A model generated the notes under the pieces. The model searched no databases. It saw only the letters and a list, made by a program, of their open reading frames with translations, and was not told the origin of the DNA. Source: Minisyncoccota bacterium (GTDB lineage Bacteria; Patescibacteriota; Minisyncoccia; Phycocordibacterales; SBAW01). Taken from it: 64,000 nucleotides of DNA. Positions 25,240 to 45,935 of the stretch are shown piece by piece. Both the position numbers and the translations under genes were made by a program. The stretch is taken from assembly GCA_035546615.1 (NCBI GenBank), contig DASZWM010000006.1:128001-192000 (forward strand). The letters are read 5' to 3'. Each line of letters begins with the position of its first letter. The stretch's first letter is position 1.

Positions 25240-25741
25240 AAATAGAGCAACCGCTCTGTCAAAAAGAAGGAATATCCGATGACAGGAATAGTCGATACAC
25301 GCCGCGCATGTCTAAGATGCGGTAGCCCCATCTCATCCGCAAGCAGCCCGCTTGTTGTGCAAGAGCGAGGCTTCAGCGCAGAAGCGTGCGTGCCCGCTGC
25401 GATATGTCGCAATTCGGCCTGTGGCCAGGTCACTGCGGATCGCGCAAGTGTGGCGAACTCATCGTTGCGGTGGATGTACGGGCGCACCCCGGTCACTTTC
25501 GTTCCGGGCCCGATTTCCCGGTCTAATGAGTTTTTGCTTACTCCTACGGCCGCGCAGCTCCATCGGGCGTAAGGCTCAACGGAAACGTCACCTCCCCGTC
25601 GCGTCCAGTACAGGATGCGACGGTTTTGCTTCGCAAACCCGCGACCCCGCCTCACAATCGCTTTAGCGATATGTTCCGGCCTTCAATTCCGGGCGCAGGC
25701 AAAGCAGTTTACCTGCTCGGCCCTCCTTCGTTAACACTCAG
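25240..25741 (-). other. ~500-nt region with low coding potential between the exonuclease and tRNA-Pro; candidate structured non-coding RNA (or pseudogene). Strand is guessed from a minus-orientation terminator-like hairpin at 25244-25258
   Basis: The only ORFs here are a Cys/Ser/Arg-rich 97-aa frame and a 146-aa GTG frame whose GC3 (~60%) equals bulk GC, versus ~75-80% in neighbouring real genes. Many local hairpins; no RNase P, tmRNA or SRP consensus found by eye. Confidence 0.25.
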
Positions 25742-25812
25742 TCGGGCCGCCGGGAATTGAACCCGGTCTACATGCACCCCATGCATGTGTACTGCCGGTA
25801 TACTACGGCCCG
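25742..25812 (-). tRNA. tRNA-Pro (anticodon GGG)
   Basis: Folded by hand on the minus strand: acceptor CGGGCCG/CGGCCCG, D-arm GTAT/GTAC, anticodon stem CATGC/GCATG with loop ATGGGGT, variable loop TAGA, T-arm CCGGG-TTCAATT-CCCGG, discriminator A. Confidence 0.8.
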
Positions 25813-27447: not shown

Positions 27448-27885
27448 ATGAACATCACTGCTAGCGTCGCTATCGCAGTCTCCGCAGCGTTCAATGTGAC
27501 CCCTGCGCAGATGCCGCCCCTGCCGGCTCCGATGCCCCAGGTGCAGACCGTTAAGGAGTATGTAGAACAGTACTTTGCCGACGAGCCCATCCTTGCCGCT
27601 ATCGCGTCCTGCGAGTCGCAGTACCGCCAGTTCGACAAGAACGGCGACGTTCTCAAGAACAGCGCGGGCAGCTCGGCGGTAGGTCTCTTCCAGATTATGT
27701 CGTCCATCCACTCGGACTTCGCTGACGACAAGCTCGGCCTCGACATCAATACGCTCCAGGGTAACGCCGCCTACGCGCGCTACCTGTACGACAAGCAGGG
27801 CCTCAAGCCTTGGGAAGCGTCCAAAGCGTGCTGGTCCAAGAGCCAGGCATACAAGAATATGCAGGCTCTCGCCCTCAATAAGTAA
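27448..27885 (+). CDS. Transglycosylase-like (SLT / lysozyme-like) secreted protein
   Basis: AIASCESQYRQF...SSAVGLFQIMSSIHS...GNAAYARYLY resembles the SLT/transglycosylase-like catalytic motif (E-S ... GLxQI ... Y). Confidence 0.6.
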   Translation: MNITASVAIAVSAAFNVTPAQMPPLPAPMPQVQTVKEYVEQYFADEPILAAIASCESQYRQFDKNGDVLKNSAGSSAVGLFQIMSSIHSDFADDKLGLDINTLQGNAAYARYLYDKQGLKPWEASKACWSKSQAYKNMQALALNK

Positions 27886-28114: not shown

Positions 28115-28630
28115 ATGAAAAAGCATCTTGCCTTGTTCGCCATTGGCGCCGTGTTCCTGCTTCCTCAGCCGGCCGCCGCCGCTTCTCTTACTCAGGCGCA
28201 GGTAATCGCCATCGTGAGCCTGCTCCAGTCCTTTGGCGCGGATTCCTCCGTTATCGCCAACGTCCAGAAGTCGCTGGGGGGCACTTCCATAACCGTTTCC
28301 AATACCTGCAAATCGAACCTGGTCGTTACGGCCGACACCGATACGGTCAATCTCAAGGTAGATAATTCCAAGGACCGCGGCAACGTGGTATTCACCCTCG
28401 ATATAACCTCCTGCAAGTCCTTCACTTCAAGTGCTGTACATATGCTCTTCGACAAAAGGGAAGCGTATCTGCCTATAGACACCAGCGGCACCAAGCAAAG
28501 CGACGGCACTTGGCGCTCCACCACCGACGCTACCGCAAGCGGCTCGATGTTCCGCACGACAGGGGAGCATCTGGTCATCTTCGACTACCAAGGCCTCACC
28601 ACGAGCCTCGTCATCAACGTCAAACCGTAA
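28115..28630 (+). CDS. Hypothetical secreted protein (171 aa) with a Sec signal peptide
   Basis: MKKHLALFAIGAVFLLPQPAAAAS; Thr/Ser-rich mature part. Confidence 0.6.
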   Translation: MKKHLALFAIGAVFLLPQPAAAASLTQAQVIAIVSLLQSFGADSSVIANVQKSLGGTSITVSNTCKSNLVVTADTDTVNLKVDNSKDRGNVVFTLDITSCKSFTSSAVHMLFDKREAYLPIDTSGTKQSDGTWRSTTDATASGSMFRTTGEHLVIFDYQGLTTSLVINVKP

Positions 28631-28642
28631 TACGTTAAAATA

Positions 28643-28672
28643 TTGACGATTCCACATATTTTGTGGTATTTT
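28643..28672 (+). promoter_or_regulatory. Promoter TTGACG-N18-TATTTT with TGTGG extension (TGTGGTATTTT) for the tautomerase-like gene
   Basis: -35 at 28643-28648, -10 at 28667-28672. Confidence 0.45.
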
Positions 28673-28716
28673 GTCCCTTGGCTAGATTTAACCAAGCGCC
28701 GAAGGACGCATAGTAA

Positions 28717-29076
28717 ATGCCGCAGATTACGCTTTGGTGCCTTCCGCATATGTCGGAAGGAAAACTGCGCGAGCTTCATAAGAGTGTCGTTGCAGCAGCG
28801 GTCAGCATCAAGGAGCTCGGACTCAAGGACGAGAACGATTTCCTGACCGTTTTTCCGGTCGATATGATGGAATACGGTCTCGGTACCGAGATCATGGTCC
28901 AGGTGTCGGAGCTCTGGGACAAGCCGGAGCGTACGCCTGAGGTCCGCAACCGCCTCGCTCAAGCGCTGGGCAAGGCGGTCAAGGAACTGTTCCCAGGTGC
29001 GCTCGTTGCAGCCCGCATCGACCCGCCCTTCAGCCCGAAAGAACATGGATTCTGGGCGTCAAATATGCCGGAATAA
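28717..29076 (+). CDS. Hypothetical protein, possibly tautomerase-like (N-terminal Met-Pro)
   Basis: Begins MPQITLW...; 119 aa. Assignment weak, based only on the MP start and size. Confidence 0.45.
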   Translation: MPQITLWCLPHMSEGKLRELHKSVVAAAVSIKELGLKDENDFLTVFPVDMMEYGLGTEIMVQVSELWDKPERTPEVRNRLAQALGKAVKELFPGALVAARIDPPFSPKEHGFWASNMPE

Positions 29077-29080
29077 TACC

Positions 29081-29140
29081 GGCCGACGAATGAAAAGCCT
29101 TCCGGCGATTCACTTCGTCGGCCGGCTTTTCTTTTATATA
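29081..29140 (+). terminator. Strong rho-independent terminator (ACCGGCCGACGAA...TTCGTCGGCCGGC plus TTTTCTTTT)
   Basis: 13-bp stem plus T-run; marks the left edge of the low-GC island. Confidence 0.75.
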
Positions 29141-29272
29141 AGCAGGGAAGTGGCTTCCCTCTTTGTGGCGAGAAAATAGAGTAGGTGGAAATCCCGCTTT
29201 ATAATTTTAGATTATTCCCAGATCTTTGAGTTTCTAAGGTAAGAATCCCTACCTGTCTTTATCGTAGAAACC

Positions 29273-30331
29273 CTATCCGTTCTTGGCAAGCTTGTCGGTG
29301 TTGGAAGGGTTTCCCGCACCACTGTTCTTAGGGGGTTTATTGTCAGATCCTCCACCGTCACTAACTTTATCTTTTTCTTTTCCATTTTCGTTACCCGGTT
29401 TAATTATACTTGCTTTATCTTGTTTTTGTAAAAGTTTATCAATAAAGCCTGTTATATCATCACTCCCATCATCTACGAGCATAAGATGGATAGAAAGTTT
29501 TTCCAGAGACTTCTTATATTCTTCACTAAATGGCATCTCATCAGCTTTAATTACATTAGGTAAATAGGACTTGAGAAGGCTATAGTCTACGACGTATCCG
29601 TGGTCAGGGCAGTCGTATGCTAGGAAATCAATAAAGTTATCGACCTTAGCTTGCTCCATCTCACTGTATTGAGTAAGAATCCGCTTAGCATACATTCTCC
29701 CAACATCTAGAGAGCGAGTCATTGTGCCGAGCTCTATTGTTTCCACTTTCTGAAGAAGGGGTTGATAGAATTTTGCAGAATAATCCAGCAACATTTCGGC
29801 AAGGGGTTTTCTCCCGATTTTCAATATCTCCTCAGTGACTTTCTTTTTAGAACGAAGTTGGTTGAACATTTCGAGCATACCTTGTCTTGAGCGAGCCTCA
29901 ATTTGTAAGAGACTGGCTTGTACATTCAAAGCGGATGACCACTGGCCTTCGGGGTCTGTGTCATCATCCTTCTTGACTTGTACGTCAATTGGTCCAAGTT
30001 CGCCGAAGTCACCAAGAACGACTCGGCTCGCGCCGAGAGTAAATATAGTGGCGGCGCTTTTTGCCCAAAACGGGATTACGACATTTACAATATCGAACTT
30101 CTCACGAAATGTTCTTATTAACCGATAGGCATCGTCAGCTTGTCCTCCTCCAGATTGAAGGATTATATCTACTTCTGCGCTATGTGGGGTGTCTTGCAGA
30201 CTCCTTCGGACTCTTACTACATTGATGCCACCGATTCCACCAAAGTAGACAAAAGTAGGTATTTCTCCTCTTAAATTTTGCAACACTTTAACCTCGGTGA
30301 GTACTTTTGGAATATCTCTCATCTCGGACAT
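29273..30331 (-). CDS. SDH-family (serine dehydrogenase proteinase, S49/ClpP-fold) putative peptidase with a Lys/Gly/Asp-rich C-terminal tail
   Basis: VDIILQSGGGQADDAYRLIRTF...VIPFWAKSAATIFTLGASRVVLGDFGELGPIDVQV parallels the SDH/S49 pattern (HTPGG ... AMSGGT ... LGPVDPQ). AT-rich codons. Confidence 0.6.
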   Translation of the reverse strand: MSEMRDIPKVLTEVKVLQNLRGEIPTFVYFGGIGGINVVRVRRSLQDTPHSAEVDIILQSGGGQADDAYRLIRTFREKFDIVNVVIPFWAKSAATIFTLGASRVVLGDFGELGPIDVQVKKDDDTDPEGQWSSALNVQASLLQIEARSRQGMLEMFNQLRSKKKVTEEILKIGRKPLAEMLLDYSAKFYQPLLQKVETIELGTMTRSLDVGRMYAKRILTQYSEMEQAKVDNFIDFLAYDCPDHGYVVDYSLLKSYLPNVIKADEMPFSEEYKKSLEKLSIHLMLVDDGSDDITGFIDKLLQKQDKASIIKPGNENGKEKDKVSDGGGSDNKPPKNSGAGNPSNTDKLAKNG

Positions 30332-30717
30332 AATATCTCTGTAGAGGCGCCTTGTAAATCAACATGCGTTTTGAGAAGGGAAATGGATTATGCTGTAAAG
30401 ACTTTATGATCCCGAGTTCATTGATAAACAAAAGGATTCTATCCGGGGAAGGGGTGCGGATTATTCTAGCCGAGATTCCCGGCCCTCTCTAGGTTAAAAG
30501 GTATATATAGGTCGCAAAAGGTATATTGTGCGACGTATCTACCCTTTAACTAATCCCGCACGCGGCGGGCTTCCCCATTTGATTTGCATCACTCAATTAA
30601 GTTTCCGCAGCGTATCAGTTTTTAACAATCTCCTTCCAGATCTGCGCTGTGCTTTTTCAACGAACTGGGTACTCCCCTGAACACAATAGTCGGACAGGGG
30701 AGCAAGTCCAGTTTTAA

Positions 30718-30726
30718 GGGGGGGGG
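30718..30726. repeat. Homopolymeric G9 (C9 on the minus strand) tract in the island's non-coding arm
   Basis: GGGGGGGGG at 30718-30726; an unusual simple-sequence repeat for this sequence and a potential slipped-strand site. Confidence 0.6.
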
Positions 30727-30773
30727 TATAAACTCCTCCTTTGCTTCCCTGCCCCAGCTTTCCCTTATGCCTA

Positions 30774-30803
30774 TTGACATACTTTATAATGATATGTTAT
30801 GAT
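30774..30803 (+). promoter_or_regulatory. Near-consensus promoter TTGACA-N18-TATGAT, followed by a leader hairpin (TGAAC-GGAAA-GTTCA) and a perfect SD (AAGGAGGTGA)
   Basis: -35 at 30774-30779, -10 at 30798-30803, GGAGGT at 30827-30832. Confidence 0.55.
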
Positions 30804-30836
30804 ACATGAACGGAAAGTTCATTGAAGGAGGTGACT

Positions 30837-31088
30837 ATGACGGAACGTCGCAGGAACATCCCGAAGGGCAAGACGAGAGTCATCGGCTGCGATCTCTTCG
30901 ATCGCAGCGATTACTTGGTCGGCGACTATCACAAGCGTGAAGACGCTTTCAAGATCGCCGACGAGAAGAACCGCGCTCGCACCGGCTCGATGGATGATGT
31001 CTATTACGTCTACGACGACACCGGCAAGTACATTCGCGGCGAGGAAGCCGTGAAGGAGCTGACCGGCGGCCTCGGCATCAGTCCGTAG
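30837..31088 (+). CDS. Hypothetical small protein (83 aa, MTERRRNIPKGKTRVIGCDLFDRSDYLVGDYHKREDAFKIADEKNRARTGSMDDVYYVYDDTGKYIRGEEAVKELTGGLGISP)
   Basis: Strongest expression signals in the window (consensus promoter, perfect SD, terminator); high-GC native codon usage; no family recognised. Confidence 0.6.
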   Translation: MTERRRNIPKGKTRVIGCDLFDRSDYLVGDYHKREDAFKIADEKNRARTGSMDDVYYVYDDTGKYIRGEEAVKELTGGLGISP

Positions 31089-31117
31089 GTCGAAGATGGG
31101 GCGATAGCGTAGCATTA

Positions 31118-31148
31118 GGCGGGAGAGAAATCTCCCGCCTTTTCTTTT
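31118..31148 (+). terminator. Rho-independent terminator (GGCGGGAGAGAAATCTCCCGCC plus TTTTCTTTT)
   Basis: 8-bp stem plus T-run. Confidence 0.75.
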
Positions 31149-31234
31149 GATACGTTTTGCGACGCCGCTTCAGATAATTGAATTTGTGCGACACTTATAA
31201 CCTCGCGACCCGGCTGGTACAATGACTGGTACGC

Positions 31235-31903
31235 ATGCGGTACAAAGATCAGATCCGGGCCCTTCTCTCCCCTGCGGAGCGCGCCGTCTTTAAAAAGTTA
31301 AAGACTCCAATGCTTGTACAGGACTACATTGAGGCCCTCCCCCAGAATTTTTCTTACAAGGCGGGGGACACCTGCCGCTCGGCGCGCCGGATATTGAAGG
31401 AAAAGAAGGCCTACTGCTTTGAGGGGGCGGTATTCGCCGCTGCCCTGCTCGCCTACCATGGCCGCACGCCGTGGCTCCTTGATCTCCAGACCACCAACGA
31501 CGACGAGGACCACGTGCTCGCGCTCTTTAAAGAGAACGGGCTGTGGGGCGCCGTCAGCAAGACCAATCATCCGGTCCTGCGCTGGCGCGACCCGGTGTAC
31601 AAAACGGTGCGCGAGCTTGCGATGAGCTTTTTCCACGAATACTTTCTGCCCGACACGGGGAAGAAGACGCTCCTTGCGTACTCCAAGCCTTTTGATCTTT
31701 CAAAATATAAGCCGGAGCTGTGGGTCACCTCAGAGAAAAGCCTGGACTGGCTGGCGGAGGACATGGACGCCTCAAAGCACTTCCCCATTGCAGACAAAAT
31801 CTCGCTTAAGCGAGCGCGCAAAGCATCGAAGCTTGAGCGCAAGGCACTGATGCTCGAAGAATGGAAACCGAAAACTAATTCTTCATCCCTATCCCCTTTT
31901 TGA
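31235..31903 (+). CDS. Hypothetical protein, possibly transglutaminase-like cysteine-peptidase fold
   Basis: KAYCFEGAVFAAALLAYHG...DDEDHVLALF suggests a Cys...His...Asp arrangement. Weak. Confidence 0.45.
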   Translation: MRYKDQIRALLSPAERAVFKKLKTPMLVQDYIEALPQNFSYKAGDTCRSARRILKEKKAYCFEGAVFAAALLAYHGRTPWLLDLQTTNDDEDHVLALFKENGLWGAVSKTNHPVLRWRDPVYKTVRELAMSFFHEYFLPDTGKKTLLAYSKPFDLSKYKPELWVTSEKSLDWLAEDMDASKHFPIADKISLKRARKASKLERKALMLEEWKPKTNSSSLSPF

Positions 31904-43613: not shown

Positions 43614-44228
43614 TTAAAGGCTCTTGATGTCCTTAACTATCTCCGGAAACTGCTCTTGATTCTGGTGTTTCCTGTCTTCGAATATTCGAACGGTAGCGTT
43701 GGGAAGCAAGTTACGATACTTCTCAAGCTCGTCGATATTTACGATAGGATCATCTTTACTGTGGTATAGGAATATCTTTCCGGCTTGTTTTTCGAATTTC
43801 TCAAGAGAGCTGGGCAGGACGAATTCGCTTACGACCCTCTGAGTCTCTCCTTTTCCGCGCATCTCAAATGGAGCTGCGACTAGAAATACTCCATTTATCT
43901 TTTTTGGGAACTCCTCTTCGGACAAGTATCTCGCCAAGAATATGCCTCCAAGCGAATGGCCTACCAATATAACTCCATGTTCTATGAAAGGAATGAATCT
44001 TTCGAACCATATCTTCCACTCCGGATATCGGGCATTTTCCTTATTGGGCATGCCGGGATATATAACCTCGTATTCATCGCCAAGGCTCTGAGGAAGCCTG
44101 CTTTTCCAGTCCCCACCGCCTTTGAACTTATCGATATAAATCGGCTTAGTCTTGAGATTGTTAAGAAAATCCTCGTAAGTTGGAAAAGCAGAACTGCCAC
44201 CATGTATGACTACAACTTGTTTTTTCAT
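43614..44228 (-). CDS. Alpha/beta hydrolase, RBBP9/YdeN-like serine hydrolase (DUF1234)
   Basis: VVVIHGGSS...ILVGHSLGG (GxSxG) ... HSKDDPIV pattern; 204 aa. Confidence 0.7.
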   Translation of the reverse strand: MKKQVVVIHGGSSAFPTYEDFLNNLKTKPIYIDKFKGGGDWKSRLPQSLGDEYEVIYPGMPNKENARYPEWKIWFERFIPFIEHGVILVGHSLGGIFLARYLSEEEFPKKINGVFLVAAPFEMRGKGETQRVVSEFVLPSSLEKFEKQAGKIFLYHSKDDPIVNIDELEKYRNLLPNATVRIFEDRKHQNQEQFPEIVKDIKSL

Positions 44229-45490
44229 TATAGTATCTTATTAGCTGCGTCTAATCCTGTTGCTAAGGCTGCTTCGACAGTGGCTGCCTCTCTACCTTGA
44301 TATAACGCTTCGCCTGCGAAAAATATCTTGTTATCTATTGGCTCCAAAAGTTCCGTTTTTGCTGCCGCGGTAGACGGCTTTGCGTAACTATAAGCGCCTT
44401 TTGCATAGGGGTCAGCAGACCAATTTATCACGCGAAAGTGCTTAAGCTCGCTTTGCAGCATTTCTTTCGAAACTTTCAAGATGGTTGCAAGCGTATCAAG
44501 AGAGCGACTTACCACTATTTCGTCGCTTAACCCTTCGAATTCCTTAACCTTAGGGCCCGCAAGCCAGCCGGTAAGCATTGGAATCTCTTCCGGGTACTGC
44601 GTCCACCATGCCCCGAACTCCTCGTTAGTAAGCAGCAATATCATCTTGCTCAGATCATGTTCATTCGCCTGTGCCCACCAGCGAGATTTGAACTTCAAGA
44701 GCACTTTTATTACGCCGCCAAATCCGATGTTTTGTGCTGCCTGGATCTTTTCCGGCTGCTCCGGCGTAAAGGAAATATTTGGCAAAATCGAAGTCGGCAC
44801 GGTTACAAGGACTTTCTGGGCCTCAAATATTTTTCCATCAGAGCACGTTATTTTTATAGTGTCGGTCGATGTATCTATTCCCTGTACTACAGTATGCAAC
44901 TGTATCTCTACTCCAAGTCTTTTGCACTCATTTTGTAAAAACTTCACAAGCGCTCCATACCCCTCCTTCAATTTTGCCTGCTCTCCCATGCCTTCGCTCA
45001 TCCACTCGTCGCGCAGCATGTACATGCTTACTTCCGCCGGGTCGGCTGCGTCGTACCCTTCAGCCATCCGCGTTACCGCATTGCGTAGACCTTCGTATTT
45101 TTCTTCCAAAAAATGCGTATCCAGGAATTTGGCAAGCGGCATATCTTCCTCAAGGACTTTTAACTTCTCCTGCAGTGCGTCCATATCGGGAACGATAAAG
45201 GGAGCCTGCGAAAGTTCGCCGTTGCGGGCATTCCAAATTTCTCCATCGCGCACTAATACCGTTAGCCCAGCGTCTTGTGCGAGAGCCCTGGTAACAGGAG
45301 TAGCTCCGTGTATAAACTCTGCACCGGCTTCTGCAGGAAAGCCGAATTCATCGGCAGGTAAAGTGTAAATGCGCCCTCCGACGCGATCGCGCGCTTCCAG
45401 AATAGTCACTTTCTTTCCGGCCTTCGCGAGCTCTCGCGCAGCCATAAGTCCCGCAGCTCCGGCGCCTACAATAATTACCCCAGTATCCAT
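44228..45490 (-). CDS. FAD-dependent amine oxidase family oxidoreductase
   Basis: Dinucleotide-binding IIVGAGAAGLMAARELAKAGKKVTILEARDRVGGR; amine-oxidase fold length. Confidence 0.8.
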   Translation of the reverse strand: MDTGVIIVGAGAAGLMAARELAKAGKKVTILEARDRVGGRIYTLPADEFGFPAEAGAEFIHGATPVTRALAQDAGLTVLVRDGEIWNARNGELSQAPFIVPDMDALQEKLKVLEEDMPLAKFLDTHFLEEKYEGLRNAVTRMAEGYDAADPAEVSMYMLRDEWMSEGMGEQAKLKEGYGALVKFLQNECKRLGVEIQLHTVVQGIDTSTDTIKITCSDGKIFEAQKVLVTVPTSILPNISFTPEQPEKIQAAQNIGFGGVIKVLLKFKSRWWAQANEHDLSKMILLLTNEEFGAWWTQYPEEIPMLTGWLAGPKVKEFEGLSDEIVVSRSLDTLATILKVSKEMLQSELKHFRVINWSADPYAKGAYSYAKPSTAAAKTELLEPIDNKIFFAGEALYQGREAATVEAALATGLDAANKIL

Positions 45491-45521: not shown

Positions 45522-45896
45522 CTAGATTTTTTTAACAGTAAAGTAAGAACTAGCGACAGTCTTCTCACCAATGAGAATTTCTACATCGTAGCGACCTTCT
45601 TTCTCAACGGGGAACCCTTGAAGTCTATGTATAAATTGATGACGAAAGTTTTTTGGTTCAAAAGTTGTTGAATCCCTTCCAATTTCTTTTCCTTCACAGG
45701 AGATCCTAAATGATTCCATATATTGCTTATTTTGTTGGTCAGCCGGTATTTCAATATTGACAACAATGCACATACTGCTATGTATTGCAGGAAAGCCAGG
45801 TACATTTATAGAATCAAACACACCTCTGATATTTAATTTTTTGTCGTTCTCAGAAATTTCGGCCGAATCACACAAAAGAATGAAATTTGGTTTCAT
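45522..45896 (-). CDS. Hypothetical protein (124 aa), AT-rich
   Basis: ORF on the same strand and with the same composition as its island neighbours; no family recognised. Confidence 0.45.
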   Translation of the reverse strand: MKPNFILLCDSAEISENDKKLNIRGVFDSINVPGFPAIHSSMCIVVNIEIPADQQNKQYMESFRISCEGKEIGRDSTTFEPKNFRHQFIHRLQGFPVEKEGRYDVEILIGEKTVASSYFTVKKI

Positions 45897-45935
45897 AAAA
45901 ACTATTTTAGCATGTAAAAAAATATTTGTCTAATT

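What the first reader, a model, noticed from the sequence alone, without database searches (positions are those of the whole stretch)
29141..30820. Low-GC island carrying an SDH/S49-like ClpP-fold protease and a G9 homopolymer tract
GC falls from ~60% to ~40% immediately after a strong terminator at 29081-29140. The island encodes one 352-aa SDH-family (serine dehydrogenase proteinase / ClpP-fold) protein with a Lys/Gly/Asp-rich tail and atypical codon usage. Beyond that it has ~450 nt of AT-rich non-coding DNA with direct repeats (AAAGGTATAT x2), an inverted repeat and a G9 run at 30718-30726. Homopolymeric G tracts of this length are slippage-prone and are rare in this sequence. On the minus strand the tract would read as a Pro-Pro-Pro run in a ~50-aa frame that starts inside the adjacent gene's -35 box. 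The island ends at the promoter of the 30837 gene. This looks like a horizontally acquired module, possibly defence- or stress-related.
Basis: partly seen in the sequence, partly recalled or inferred. Interest (0 to 1): 0.6.

Follow-up and report, generated by a model that had tools for sequence, protein, structure and literature searches.

The report
Imported protease gene with hidden partner
A small piece of foreign, low-GC DNA in an uncultured Patescibacteria genome carries a ClpP-like serine protease gene and an unannotated 57-codon partner gene that overlaps its end; the G9 run and repeats next to it belong to the host's own DNA and look incidental.

Summary
The GC drop (0.43 against 0.58), the PF01972 protease ORF, the repeats and the G9 run sit where stated. 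The interpretation needs three corrections.

1. The imported DNA is smaller than claimed, at most 29160-30488. Short non-coding elements conserved in Adlerbacteria-like relatives bracket it. The AAAAGGTATAT repeats, the palindrome and the G9 tract lie in host-lineage DNA.

2. The island carries two genes, not one.
   - One is the SDH-type protease (true start M4, 349 aa). Its Ser92/Asp116/His244 are invariant across 113 diverse relatives, and its fold is ClpP-like.
   - The other is a 57-aa ORF (29212-29385, minus strand) that overlaps the protease's "Lys/Gly/Asp tail" in another frame.
   - This small ORF shows third-position substitution bias.
   - It is found at the protease 3' end in 33 of 43 related loci.
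   - It has no Pfam or PHROG match.

3. G9 is not remarkable on composition alone: 40 of 100 shuffles contain one. It lies 47 nt upstream of a -35 box, outside both supported genes.

Horizontal acquisition from a low-GC Paceibacterota-like donor is well supported (GC3 0.39 against 0.76). A role in defence or as a toxin-antitoxin-like pair is inference only.

The parts
29079..29134 (+). Intrinsic terminator of the host 119-aa gene (28717-29076). It is native DNA and marks the left edge of the GC drop.
   Evidence: A 12-bp perfect inverted repeat at 29079-29090 / 29114-29125 is followed by CTTTTCTTTT. Folding gives -33.7 kcal/mol, z -7.16, with 0 of 200 shuffles as stable.
29145..29159 (.). Short hairpin GGGAAGTGGCTTCCC. 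It is a host-lineage element and sets the outer left limit of the imported DNA.
   Evidence: It is a single copy in the window. Among 251 loci (2.7 Mb), the core GGAAGYSRCTTCC recurs only in the syntenic relatives, at L009 8904 and L010 2731.
29212..29385 (-). Unannotated small gene of 57 aa (MEKKKIKLVTVEDLTINPLRTVVRETLPTPTSLPRTDRVSTIKTGRDSYLRNSKIWE). It overlaps the last 113 nt of the protease gene in another frame and is the conserved partner of the protease.
   Evidence: Translation is. An HMM built from 12 such ORFs hits only the 3' ends of SDH genes among 47,606 six-frame segments (E <= 4e-15, next best 1.1). 33 of 43 non-redundant related loci have the ORF, and 0 of 85 distant loci do. 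Substitutions fall on its third codon positions (4/0/15, 3/2/13, 6/4/13, 11/5/19). In L175/L176 and L254 the motif lies wholly outside the protease ORF. The database holds 11 called proteins with no Pfam domain.
29273..30322 (-). SDH-type (Ser-Asp-His) ClpP-fold serine protease, 349 aa from the conserved start M4. The ORF as listed runs to 30331 (352 aa).
29403..29432 (-). Promoter-like site inside the protease coding region (TTTACA-18-TATAAT). Its -10 box ends 17 nt before the small ORF's ATG. It is a possible separate promoter for the partner gene.
   Evidence: It matches 11 of 12 consensus positions. A TATAAT 10-16 nt upstream of the small-ORF ATG is conserved in L001, L003, L004, L172 and L173. 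Function is not shown.
30330..30358 (-). Promoter-like site of the protease gene (TTTACA-17-TATTAT). The -10 box ends 7 nt before the conserved ATG, which suggests a leaderless or near-leaderless mRNA with no Shine-Dalgarno sequence.
   Evidence: The scan is. The same arrangement of a -10-like box 4-10 nt before the ATG is seen in L001, L003, L004, L172 and L173. This is an inference from sequence only.
30489..30551 (+). Host-lineage conserved non-coding element. It contains the two AAAAGGTATAT repeats and the palindrome GTCGCAAAA-N6-TTGTGCGAC. It is not part of the imported DNA and sets the outer right limit of the island.
   Evidence: blastn matches fall in syntenic relatives L010 (48 nt, 85%, E 3e-8), L009 (37 nt, 92%) and L011 (26 nt, 100%). 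A 26-nt core is invariant across the four sequences. It is a single copy in the window, with 0 of 100 shuffles matching. The hairpin folds at -21.8 kcal/mol, z -4.2.
30662..30716 (+). Stable hairpin followed by TTTT, immediately 5' of the G9 run. It is terminator-like and about 180 nt downstream of the conserved core.
   Evidence: Folding gives -25.1 kcal/mol, z -3.27, with 0 of 200 shuffles as stable. Relatives also carry a G/C-rich hairpin about 170-190 nt after the core.
30718..30726 (+). G9 homopolymer in host-lineage intergenic DNA, 47 nt upstream of the -35 hexamer of the 83-aa gene promoter (30774-30803).
   Evidence: It is the only G/C run of 7 or more in the window. 40 of 100 shuffles contain a G9/C9. 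It is identical in the Logan contig L008, assembled separately from sample SRR12170516. No variant was found in JGI metagenome contigs.
30622..30780 (-). 52-aa ORF that reads the G9 run as Pro-Pro-Pro. There is no support for it as a gene.
   Evidence: It has no PHROG hit. Its codon log-likelihood under the host model is -2.07, against host genes at -1.355 +/- 0.156. Read directly, there is no Shine-Dalgarno sequence upstream.

Best explanation
A cassette of about 1.15-1.33 kb lies within 29160-30488. Its minimal extent is 29212-30358. It was acquired horizontally by an Adlerbacteria-like Patescibacteria genome (58% GC) from a low-GC, Paceibacterota-like donor, and it landed in a variable intergenic spot between host genes.

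The cassette holds two co-oriented genes.

1. The first is a cytoplasmic SDH-type ClpP-fold serine protease of 349 aa. Gly62-Gly63 form the oxyanion loop and Ser92 is the nucleophile. Asp116 sits where ClpP has its His. His244 lies in a conserved CPDHGY loop of a family-specific C-terminal helical domain.

2. The second is a 57-aa, mostly disordered, basic protein with one conserved helix-(D/N)P-helix motif. Its gene overlaps the protease's 3' end in a different frame. The protease's 'Lys/Gly/Asp-rich tail' is mainly the read-through of that overlap.

Shown: the foreign origin, the intact catalytic triad, the ClpP-like fold, and the reality and tight linkage of the small gene.

Inferred: the small protein is the protease's cognate partner, most likely a bound inhibitor or substrate that keeps the protease in check. 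The pair would then behave as a selfish, toxin-antitoxin-like or phage-conflict module, which would explain its frequent transfer.

The G9 run, the AAAAGGTATAT repeats and the palindrome belong to the host's own intergenic region. They have no demonstrated link to the cassette.
For: Foreign origin:
- GC is 0.427 against 0.585, the lowest stretch in the window.
- GC3 is 0.39 against 0.76 +/- 0.077.
- Codon log-likelihood is -2.21 under the host model (host genes -1.355 +/- 0.156) but -1.62 under a 39% GC Paceibacterota model.
- The closest homologs (59-79% identity) sit at native GC in 31-40% GC genomes.
- DNA similarity to those genomes stops at the ends of the ORF.
- Syntenic relatives L009, L010 and L011 have different content at this spot.
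- Host-lineage elements bracket the cassette.
- The junctions are confirmed by Logan contig L007, which spans 29065-30536 at 100% identity.
- In 17 of 34 other loci the gene is 7-12 GC points below its flanks.
- IS1595 transposases or integrases lie next to the gene in several loci.

Protease:
- PF01972 is met at the gathering score.
- Only five columns are invariant in 113 diverse representatives, and they include S, D and H in that order.
- The best BFVD hits are annotated 'serine dehydrogenase proteinase'.

Partner gene:
- The evidence is, as listed under parts.
- The low-confidence tail of the protease model (residues 313-352) coincides with the overlap.
Against: - No experiment or known family assigns a function to either protein.
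- There is no PADLOC hit, and no literature on the function of PF01972 was found.
- Gene neighbourhoods of homologs mix defence and mobile-element genes with housekeeping genes. No family recurs in more than 2 of 19 loci.
- The window context is housekeeping: GluRS, M23 peptidase and an ABC transporter.
- The two clades of small ORFs are not demonstrably homologous (hhalign E 0.27).
- 10 of 43 related loci and all 85 distant loci show no detectable partner.
- The small-protein model is low confidence (pLDDT 57).
- No Shine-Dalgarno sequence precedes either gene, so expression is inferred only from promoter-like boxes.
- No direct repeats, att sites or mobility genes mark the insertion in this window.
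Confidence: 0.55

Rival explanations
1. Protease plus dedicated substrate. The small protein is a pro-peptide or pro-protein. The protease matures it by cleaving near the conserved (D/N)P motif and releasing the variable C-terminal part. This would be comparable to the NfeD protease and its operon partner stomatin, or to a leader-peptide protease. It would not be an inhibitor or antitoxin relationship.
For: - The small proteins have a conserved N-proximal motif and a variable C-terminal half.
- The start and stop codons are tightly overlapped or coupled in many loci.
Against: - No export, modification or immunity genes recur nearby.
- The small protein has no hydrophobic or signal segment.
- A small-protein homolog occurs without any protease in a phage-like locus.
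Confidence: 0.2
2. A single-gene island. The protease is a stand-alone accessory enzyme with a genuine disordered Lys/Gly/Asp tail, and the overlapping 57-aa ORF is a chance frame.
For: - Gene callers annotated only the protease in L001, L004 and L007.
- The small-protein model is poor.
Against: - Third-position substitution bias falls in the small-ORF frame, not the protease frame.
- In-frame stops fall at different places in the protease tail in L003, L172 and L173, while the alternative frame stays open.
- The motif lies outside the protease ORF in L175 and L254.
- The HMM is specific for protease 3' ends.
Confidence: 0.05
3. A phase-variable contingency locus. Slippage of the G9 tract switches expression of the protease, the 83-aa gene or the 52-aa PPP ORF.
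For: - G9 is the only long G/C run in a window that otherwise avoids them.
- It lies in a 490-nt intergenic region between divergent promoters.
Against: - G9 is 47 nt upstream of the -35 hexamer of one promoter and about 360 nt from the other. It is in neither a spacer nor a supported ORF.
- 40% of shuffles contain such a run.
- The Logan contig, assembled separately from sample SRR12170516, also reads G9.
- The tract lies in host-lineage DNA, not in the island.
Confidence: 0.05
4. A remnant of a prophage head-maturation module, that is a ClpP/S49-like prohead protease with a nested scaffold-like gene.
For: - There are weak hits to head-maturation protease models (NF045542 22.7 bits; phrog_26628 E 0.0024).
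- Distant relatives occur in prophages.
Against: - Scores are far below the cut-off (22.7 against 120).
- The best PHROGs are of unknown function.
- No capsid, portal or terminase genes are nearby in the window or in the closest loci.
- In phages the gene sits at accessory positions, next to the integrase or the immunity region.
Confidence: 0.04
5. An assembly artefact. A low-GC fragment from another organism was joined into a high-GC contig.
For: - The composition changes abruptly on both sides.
- Logan contigs of this genome are short.
Against: - Logan contig L007 (29065-30536) crosses both composition boundaries and includes host terminator sequence and the host-lineage core element at 100% identity. 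L008 overlaps it.
- Logan contig breaks occur about every 1.5 kb across this genome, not specifically at the island.
Confidence: 0.03

Closest known systems
Pfam PF01972 SDH_protease (ClpP-like SDH-type serine proteinase, formerly DUF114; MEROPS S49-related) / NCBIfam NF047768
   Same: - The N-terminal ClpP-like core, from the oxyanion loop through the Ser and Asp, matches the model above the Pfam gathering score.
- Ser, Asp and His are invariant and in S-D-H order.
- The fold is ClpP/SppA-like.
   Different: - Only residues 40-120 align to the Pfam model (profile positions 80-160 of 286).
- The roughly 190-residue C-terminal helical domain carrying CPDHGY is specific to the subfamily.
- The NCBIfam equivalog score is 40 against a cut-off of 250, and named relatives also score only 49-56.
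- A conserved small partner gene is present downstream, which the family descriptions do not mention.
ClpP (S14) and SppA / NfeD 1510-N (S49) self-compartmentalising proteases
   Same: - It has GG oxyanion and xKSAA nucleophile motifs equivalent to the SPGG and AAS motifs of ClpP (the comparison is from my own knowledge).
- NfeD also works on an operon partner (my own knowledge).
   Different: - The position of the ClpP His is occupied by Asp116, and the His comes about 150 residues later.
- There is no AAA+ partner and no membrane segment.
- CLP_protease (PF00574) is hit weakly by only 6 of 44 members.
- The oligomeric state is unknown.
Type II toxin-antitoxin or abortive-infection two-gene modules
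   Same: - The cassette is compact, with two co-oriented overlapping genes.
- One product is small, basic and mostly disordered.
- The module moves often, sits at lower GC than its surroundings, and occurs next to IS elements, integrases and restriction-modification genes, and in prophage accessory slots.
- An orphan copy of the small gene lies in a phage-like locus.
   Different: - No toxicity, neutralisation or autoregulation has been shown.
- Neither protein matches a known toxin-antitoxin or PADLOC family.
- The large partner is a ClpP-fold protease, which to my knowledge is not a described toxin class.
- The DNA-binding domain typical of antitoxins is not evident.

Membership tests
Pfam PF01972 SDH_protease | Whole-protein score at or above the curated gathering score | tested here: met
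   The score is 33.1 bits against 31.3, over residues 40-120 only. All 44 aligned homologs match, with a best E-value of 4e-14.
Pfam PF01972 SDH_protease | Catalytic Ser, Asp and His in that order along the chain (the origin of the name 'SDH'; definition from my own knowledge of the Pfam description) | tested here: met
   S92, D116 and H244 are three of only five invariant columns in 113 representatives that are 19-49% identical. Their spatial proximity could not be measured because the model coordinates are not exposed.
Pfam PF01972 SDH_protease | ClpP/crotonase-like fold | tested here: met
   [not shown]
NCBIfam NF047768 Clp_like_SDH (equivalog) | Score at or above the curated cut-off of 250 bits | tested here: not met
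   The score is 40.2 bits. Relatives that NCBI names 'SDH family' score 49-56 bits. This is a divergent subfamily, not the equivalog.
ClpP (S14, PF00574) | Ser-His-Asp triad with the His about 25 residues after the Ser, and a family HMM match | tested here: not met
   The equivalent position is the invariant Asp116. The window protein has no PF00574 hit, and only 6 of 44 relatives have a weak one.
Phage head-maturation protease (NF045542, ClpP-related) | HMM score at or above 120 bits, and a position beside portal and capsid genes | tested here: not met
   The score is 22.7 bits. There are no capsid or portal genes in the window or in the closest loci.
Known anti-phage defence systems (PADLOC-DB v2) | Match to a model of a known or candidate defence protein | tested here: not met
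   The protease and its three neighbours have no hit at E <= 0.1. Defence genes are only sporadically nearby in homolog loci.
Type II toxin-antitoxin module | Two adjacent co-transcribed genes, one giving a small labile protein that neutralises the other, with mobile and patchy distribution | tested here: inconclusive
   The architecture, the overlap, the disorder of the small protein and the mobility all fit. Toxicity and neutralisation are not testable here, and there is no match to known toxin-antitoxin families.
Phase-variable contingency locus | Homopolymer located inside a coding frame or a promoter spacer | tested here: not met
   G9 is 47 nt upstream of the -35 hexamer of the 30774-30803 promoter. 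The only ORF that crosses it has no coding support.
Phase-variable contingency locus | Tract length varies within or between populations | not testable with these tools
The Logan contig, assembled separately from sample SRR12170516, also reads G9. No other contig with the flanking sequence exists in JGI metagenomes.
Horizontally acquired genomic islet | Composition and codon usage deviate from the host and match another lineage, and the islet is absent at the syntenic site in relatives | tested here: met
   Syntenic loci L009, L010 and L011 lack it. One caveat applies: these relatives are distant, with 57-66% amino-acid identity in flanking genes.
Horizontally acquired genomic islet | Mobility signatures at the site, such as an integrase or transposase, flanking direct repeats, or a tRNA target | tested here: not met
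   None are present in the window. The best flanking direct repeat shares only a 9-nt exact AT-rich core (15 of 19 positions), which I judge compatible with chance. IS1595 transposases or integrases flank homologs elsewhere.

The most novel reading that the evidence does not exclude
The SDH-subfamily protease and its overlapping, intrinsically disordered partner of about 60 aa form a previously undescribed, widespread two-gene conflict module. It would work as a protease toxin or effector held in check by a small inhibitor or decoy substrate. It would spread among Patescibacteria, Bacteroidota and their phages. Orphan copies of the small gene in phage-like genomes (L252/L253) would act as counter-defence decoys.
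Probability: 0.15. Interest if true: 0.7.

Novelty: new variant of a known kind. Interest (0 to 1): 0.4.

Why it matters
In itself this is an ordinary event: a small horizontally transferred gene cassette in a candidate-phyla-radiation genome.

Two points have wider use.

1. A large and essentially uncharacterised protease family comes, in this subfamily, with a conserved partner gene. The family has 6,126 cluster representatives at E <= 1e-3 and 506 at E <= 1e-30, and I found no functional literature on it. Gene callers usually miss the partner because it overlaps the protease's 3' end. That gives a concrete, testable handle on what these proteases do: co-expression, cleavage or inhibition assays, and phage challenge.

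2. The case shows that a low-complexity 'tail' on a predicted protein can be the shadow of an overlapping gene.

The G-tract phase-variation idea, which raised the original score, does not hold up.

Tried and rejected
- **Logan contig breaks as evidence of island polymorphism.** Rejected. Contigs of this genome break about every 1.5 kb everywhere.
- **Flanking direct repeats as att sites.** The candidates were 29197-29215 against 30782-30800, and others. I judged them compatible with chance in AT-rich DNA.
- **Pseudogene remnant of the upstream neighbours of L001 and L003 in the 490-nt spacer.** tblastn found nothing.
- **Rfam search of 28900-31300 at E <= 5.** Only noise was returned.
- **blastn of the spacer against phage and plasmid collections.** No match.
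- **Scan of JGI metagenome contigs for G-tract length variants.** No match.
- **Search for a conserved protein neighbour longer than 60 aa outside the gene.** None was found in 28 loci, and Pfam and PADLOC profiling of 150 neighbour ORFs was heterogeneous. That first led me to call the protease a solo gene. I reversed this once the overlapping ORF was seen.
- **Consensus RNA structure for the conserved core and its downstream 200 nt.** With four sequences, only the palindrome and a terminal hairpin were recovered. There is no convincing sRNA.
- **Homology between the two clades of small ORFs.** Not significant.
- **Small protein in IMG/VR.** No pattern-confirmed hit.
- **Literature.** Searches for PF01972, 'serine dehydrogenase proteinase', SDH_protease, and ClpP-like with defence terms found nothing relevant. 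The DUF114 hits were prefix artefacts such as DUF1145 and DUF1149.
- **afdb50 fold library.** Unavailable.
Full report
**Observation.**
- The window is 58.0% GC. Region 29141-30820 is 42.7% GC and is the lowest-GC 1680-nt stretch in the 64 kb.
- The drop begins just after a very stable hairpin at 29079-29125, followed by CTTTTCTTTT (-33.7 kcal/mol, z -7.2). This is the terminator of the 119-aa host gene that ends at 29076.
- ORF 29273-30331 (-), 352 aa, hits PF01972 SDH_protease just above the gathering score: 33.1 against 31.3 bits, residues 40-120 only.
- Its GC3 is 0.39, against 0.76 +/- 0.077 for 31 host genes.
- The two AAAAGGTATAT copies, several inverted repeats, and the G9 run at 30718-30726 are all present. 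So is the 52-aa minus-strand ORF that starts in the -35 hexamer of the 30774-30803 promoter.

**Host and origin.**
- The flanking 222-aa gene finds its best relatives in Candidatus Adlerbacteria and other Patescibacteria, at 57-58% identity.
- L009, L010 and L011 are syntenic for the genes to the right: the ABC transporter, the M23 peptidase and GluRS. L009 and L010 are also syntenic for the SLT-like gene at 27448.
- Between those anchors each genome has different content, and none has the protease. This is a variable spot.
- The protease's closest homologs (59-79% identity) lie in Paceibacterota-type contigs of 31-40% GC, where the gene sits at or near local GC, within about 5 points.
- Its synonymous codon usage fits a 39% GC Paceibacterota model (-1.62 bits per codon) much better than the host model. 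The host model gives -2.21, against host genes at -1.355 +/- 0.156.
- DNA similarity to those loci stops at the ORF.
- A Logan contig of sample SRR12170516, assembled separately (L007 = window 29065-30536, 100% identity), crosses both composition boundaries. A chimeric join is therefore unlikely.
- I first thought the Logan contig ends might mark island junctions. Contigs of this genome break about every 1.5 kb regardless, so they carry no such information.

**True extent of the island.**
- A blastn of the two spacers against all fetched loci gave unexpected hits. Window 30489-30538 matches the syntenic relatives L010 (48 nt, 85%), L009 (37 nt, 92%) and L011 (26 nt, 100%), each upstream of the 222-aa gene ortholog.
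- That stretch is exactly the AAAAGGTATAT repeats plus the palindrome GTCGCAAAA-N6-TTGTGCGAC. A 26-nt core is invariant in all four genomes and single-copy in the window.
- On the left, the hairpin GGGAAGTGGCTTCCC (29145-29159) recurs only in L009 and L010 among 2.7 Mb of loci.
- The imported DNA is therefore confined to about 29160-30488.
- The repeats, the inverted repeat, the hairpin-plus-TTTT at 30662-30716 and the G9 run are host-lineage intergenic DNA.
- The spacer's GC (0.44) is low but within the range of other host spacers, whose pooled GC is 0.51.

**The G9 tract.**
- It is the only G/C run of 7 or more in the window, and G6+ runs are depleted overall: 13 against 37.8 expected.
- Even so, 40 of 100 dinucleotide-preserving shuffles contain at least one G9/C9.
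- It lies 47 nt upstream of the -35 hexamer of the 83-aa gene's promoter and about 360 nt from the protease promoter. It is in no promoter spacer.
- The 52-aa ORF that crosses it has no family hit and codon usage unlike host genes.
- The Logan contig L008 also reads G9. No other contig with these flanks exists in JGI metagenomes.
- Nothing supports a slippage switch. Only read-level data could exclude it fully.

**The protease.**
- Homologs start at MRD/MKD-VPKIL, so the conserved start is M4 (29273-30322, 349 aa).
- A -10-like box (TATTAT here) ends 7 nt before that ATG, with a TTTACA -35 box. In five close homologs (L001, L003, L004, L172, L173) a -10-like box lies 4-10 nt before the ATG, and none has a Shine-Dalgarno sequence. 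This suggests a leaderless or short-leader mRNA.
- An alignment of 44 homologs, and then of 113 diverse cluster representatives (19-49% identity), leaves only five invariant columns. These are Ser92, Asp116, Gln118, Tyr214 and His244 in 352-aa numbering.
- That is the Ser-Asp-His order that gives the family its name (definition from my own knowledge of the Pfam entry).
- No relative with a solved structure is detectable by sequence.
- The C-terminal helical domain of about 190 residues, carrying CPDHGY, is not covered by the Pfam model.
- The NCBIfam equivalog cut-off is missed by a wide margin: 40 against 250 bits. The same is true for relatives that NCBI names as SDH family. This is a divergent subfamily.
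- The broader family is large: 6,126 50%-identity representatives at E <= 1e-3, 3,463 at E <= 1e-10 and 506 at E <= 1e-30.

**A second, overlapping gene.**
- A first search for conserved neighbours found no partner longer than 60 aa outside the gene in 28 loci.
- It did flag small same-strand ORFs at the 3' end. Translating the 3' regions in all frames gave the following:
  - The protease frame acquires stops at different places (L003, L172, L173).
  - Another frame stays open and is far better conserved. By eye, WIN against L001 is about 75% identical in that frame and about 40% in the protease frame.
- In the window this is ORF 29212-29385 (-), 57 aa. It overlaps the last 113 nt of the protease gene, which is exactly the model's low-confidence tail at residues 313-352.
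- An HMM of 12 such ORFs hits only protease 3' ends among 47,606 six-frame segments. E-values are 4e-15 or better, and the next best is 1.1.
- A second clade of protease homologs (35-45% identity) has its own small ORF immediately downstream. The HMM of that set recovers non-seed hits at the same position in further loci.
- Overall, 33 of 43 non-redundant loci at 33% identity or more have the ORF. That includes every non-redundant locus at 47% identity or more that has downstream sequence. None of the 85 distant loci has it.
- Substitutions between close pairs fall on the third codon position of the small frame: 4/0/15, 3/2/13, 3/2/13, 6/4/13 and 11/5/19. That position is position 1 of the protease frame.
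- In L175/L176 (ATGA-type overlap) and L254 (6-nt gap), the conserved motif lies entirely outside the protease ORF.
- Eleven such proteins (52-89 aa) have been called in public assemblies. They have no Pfam domain and no name, and no Pfam or PHROG hit.
- The model is mostly disordered, with a short helix-(D/N)P-helix at the conserved motif (pLDDT 57).
- An 11-of-12 consensus promoter-like site (29403-29432) lies inside the protease gene, 17 nt before the small ORF's ATG. The TATAAT is conserved in five close homologs, 10-16 nt upstream of the ATG.
- The two clades of small ORFs share position, size and a short h-x-D-h-h-x-(D/N)P...R motif, but they are not significantly similar by hhalign (E 0.27).

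**What it probably does.**
- Shown: a catalytically intact SDH-type ClpP-fold protease and a tightly linked small disordered protein travel together.
- The pair is transferred often.
  - In 17 of 34 other loci the gene is 7-12 GC points below its flanks.
  - IS1595 transposases sit beside it in L089/L183 and L192, and on both sides in L190. Integrases occur in other loci.
- Distant family members occupy accessory slots of temperate phages. One is next to the integrase of a P2-like Burkholderia phage. Another lies between the immunity genes and early genes of a Klebsiella phage. They match PHROGs of unknown function at E 1e-25.
- The closest loci carry GmrSD, restriction-modification, HNH or PDC-S13 genes nearby.
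- Against that, other loci and this window have housekeeping neighbours, and PADLOC has no model for the protease.
- My best inference is a selfish, toxin-antitoxin-like or phage-conflict pair in which the small protein is the protease's bound inhibitor or decoy substrate.
- A dedicated protease-substrate (maturation) pair is the main rival.
- One homolog of the small protein (P0271) sits in a phage-like locus (RtcB, NinG, a run of small genes) with no protease. This is compatible with an orphan 'antidote' but is a single case.
- None of this has been tested experimentally, and I found no literature on the family's function.

**Verdict.**
- The finding is a real, recently acquired islet, but a smaller one than proposed, and it is a two-gene cassette.
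- The G9 and repeat features that made it look unusual belong to the host's own spacer and are probably unrelated.
- As an event it is ordinary.
- The overlooked partner gene of an uncharacterised protease subfamily is the part worth following up.

Noticed in passing
window 30489-30551 (core 30511-30538), with L009 8698-8734, L010 2935-2982, L011 348-373: A non-coding element with a 26-nt invariant core (CGCAAAAGGTATATTGTGCGACGTAT, containing the palindrome GTCGCAAAA-N6-TTGTGCGAC) is conserved across Adlerbacteria-like genomes whose flanking proteins are only 57-66% identical. In each genome a G/C-rich hairpin follows about 170-190 nt downstream. It could be an operator plus promoter, or the 5' end of a small unknown transcript. 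There is no Rfam match and no convincing consensus fold.
   Followed up: partly
window 31150-31203: Half-sites of the same palindrome (TTTTGCGAC and TTTGTGCGAC) recur in the spacer just upstream of the 222-aa transglutaminase-like gene (repeat families D2 and I6). This hints at a shared regulator site on both sides of the 83-aa gene.
   Followed up: no
window 44228-45490 (-) and 45806-45935: This is a second compositional outlier. A flavin amine-oxidase gene has GC3 0.49 and a host-model codon score of -1.91, against host genes at -1.355 +/- 0.156. A 130-nt spacer of 26% GC lies nearby. It is a possible second horizontal acquisition.
   Followed up: no
L252 1252-1410 and L253 1353-1511: A 52-aa homolog of the small partner protein (P0271) lies in a 32% GC, phage-like gene run (an RtcB-like gene upstream, NinG, many small same-strand ORFs). 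No SDH protease is in the locus.
   Followed up: partly
L190 (3386-nt contig), also L089/L183 and L192: IS1595/ISXO2-like transposase ORFs lie next to the protease-partner pair. In L190 they lie on both sides, which resembles a composite transposon.
   Followed up: partly
L011 1-350: The first 350 nt of this Adlerbacteria MAG contig are very GC-rich and encode an NRPS-like adenylation-domain C-terminus. It abuts the conserved core element exactly. This looks like a chimeric contig end or another insertion.
   Followed up: no
window 25741-25812 (-) to 31235: tRNA-Pro(GGG) lies 3.3 kb left of the island. The stretch from it to the 222-aa gene is filled with small secreted or unknown proteins (260, 113, 145 SLT-like, 171, 119 and 83 aa) that mostly lack homologs in the syntenic relatives. 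This suggests a broader variable region.
   Followed up: no
window 28585-29046 (-) against 28717-29076 (+): Two long ORFs overlap on opposite strands with similar GC3 (0.64 and 0.68). The plus-strand gene is the one followed by the strong terminator, and it was called in the Logan contig L171.
   Followed up: no
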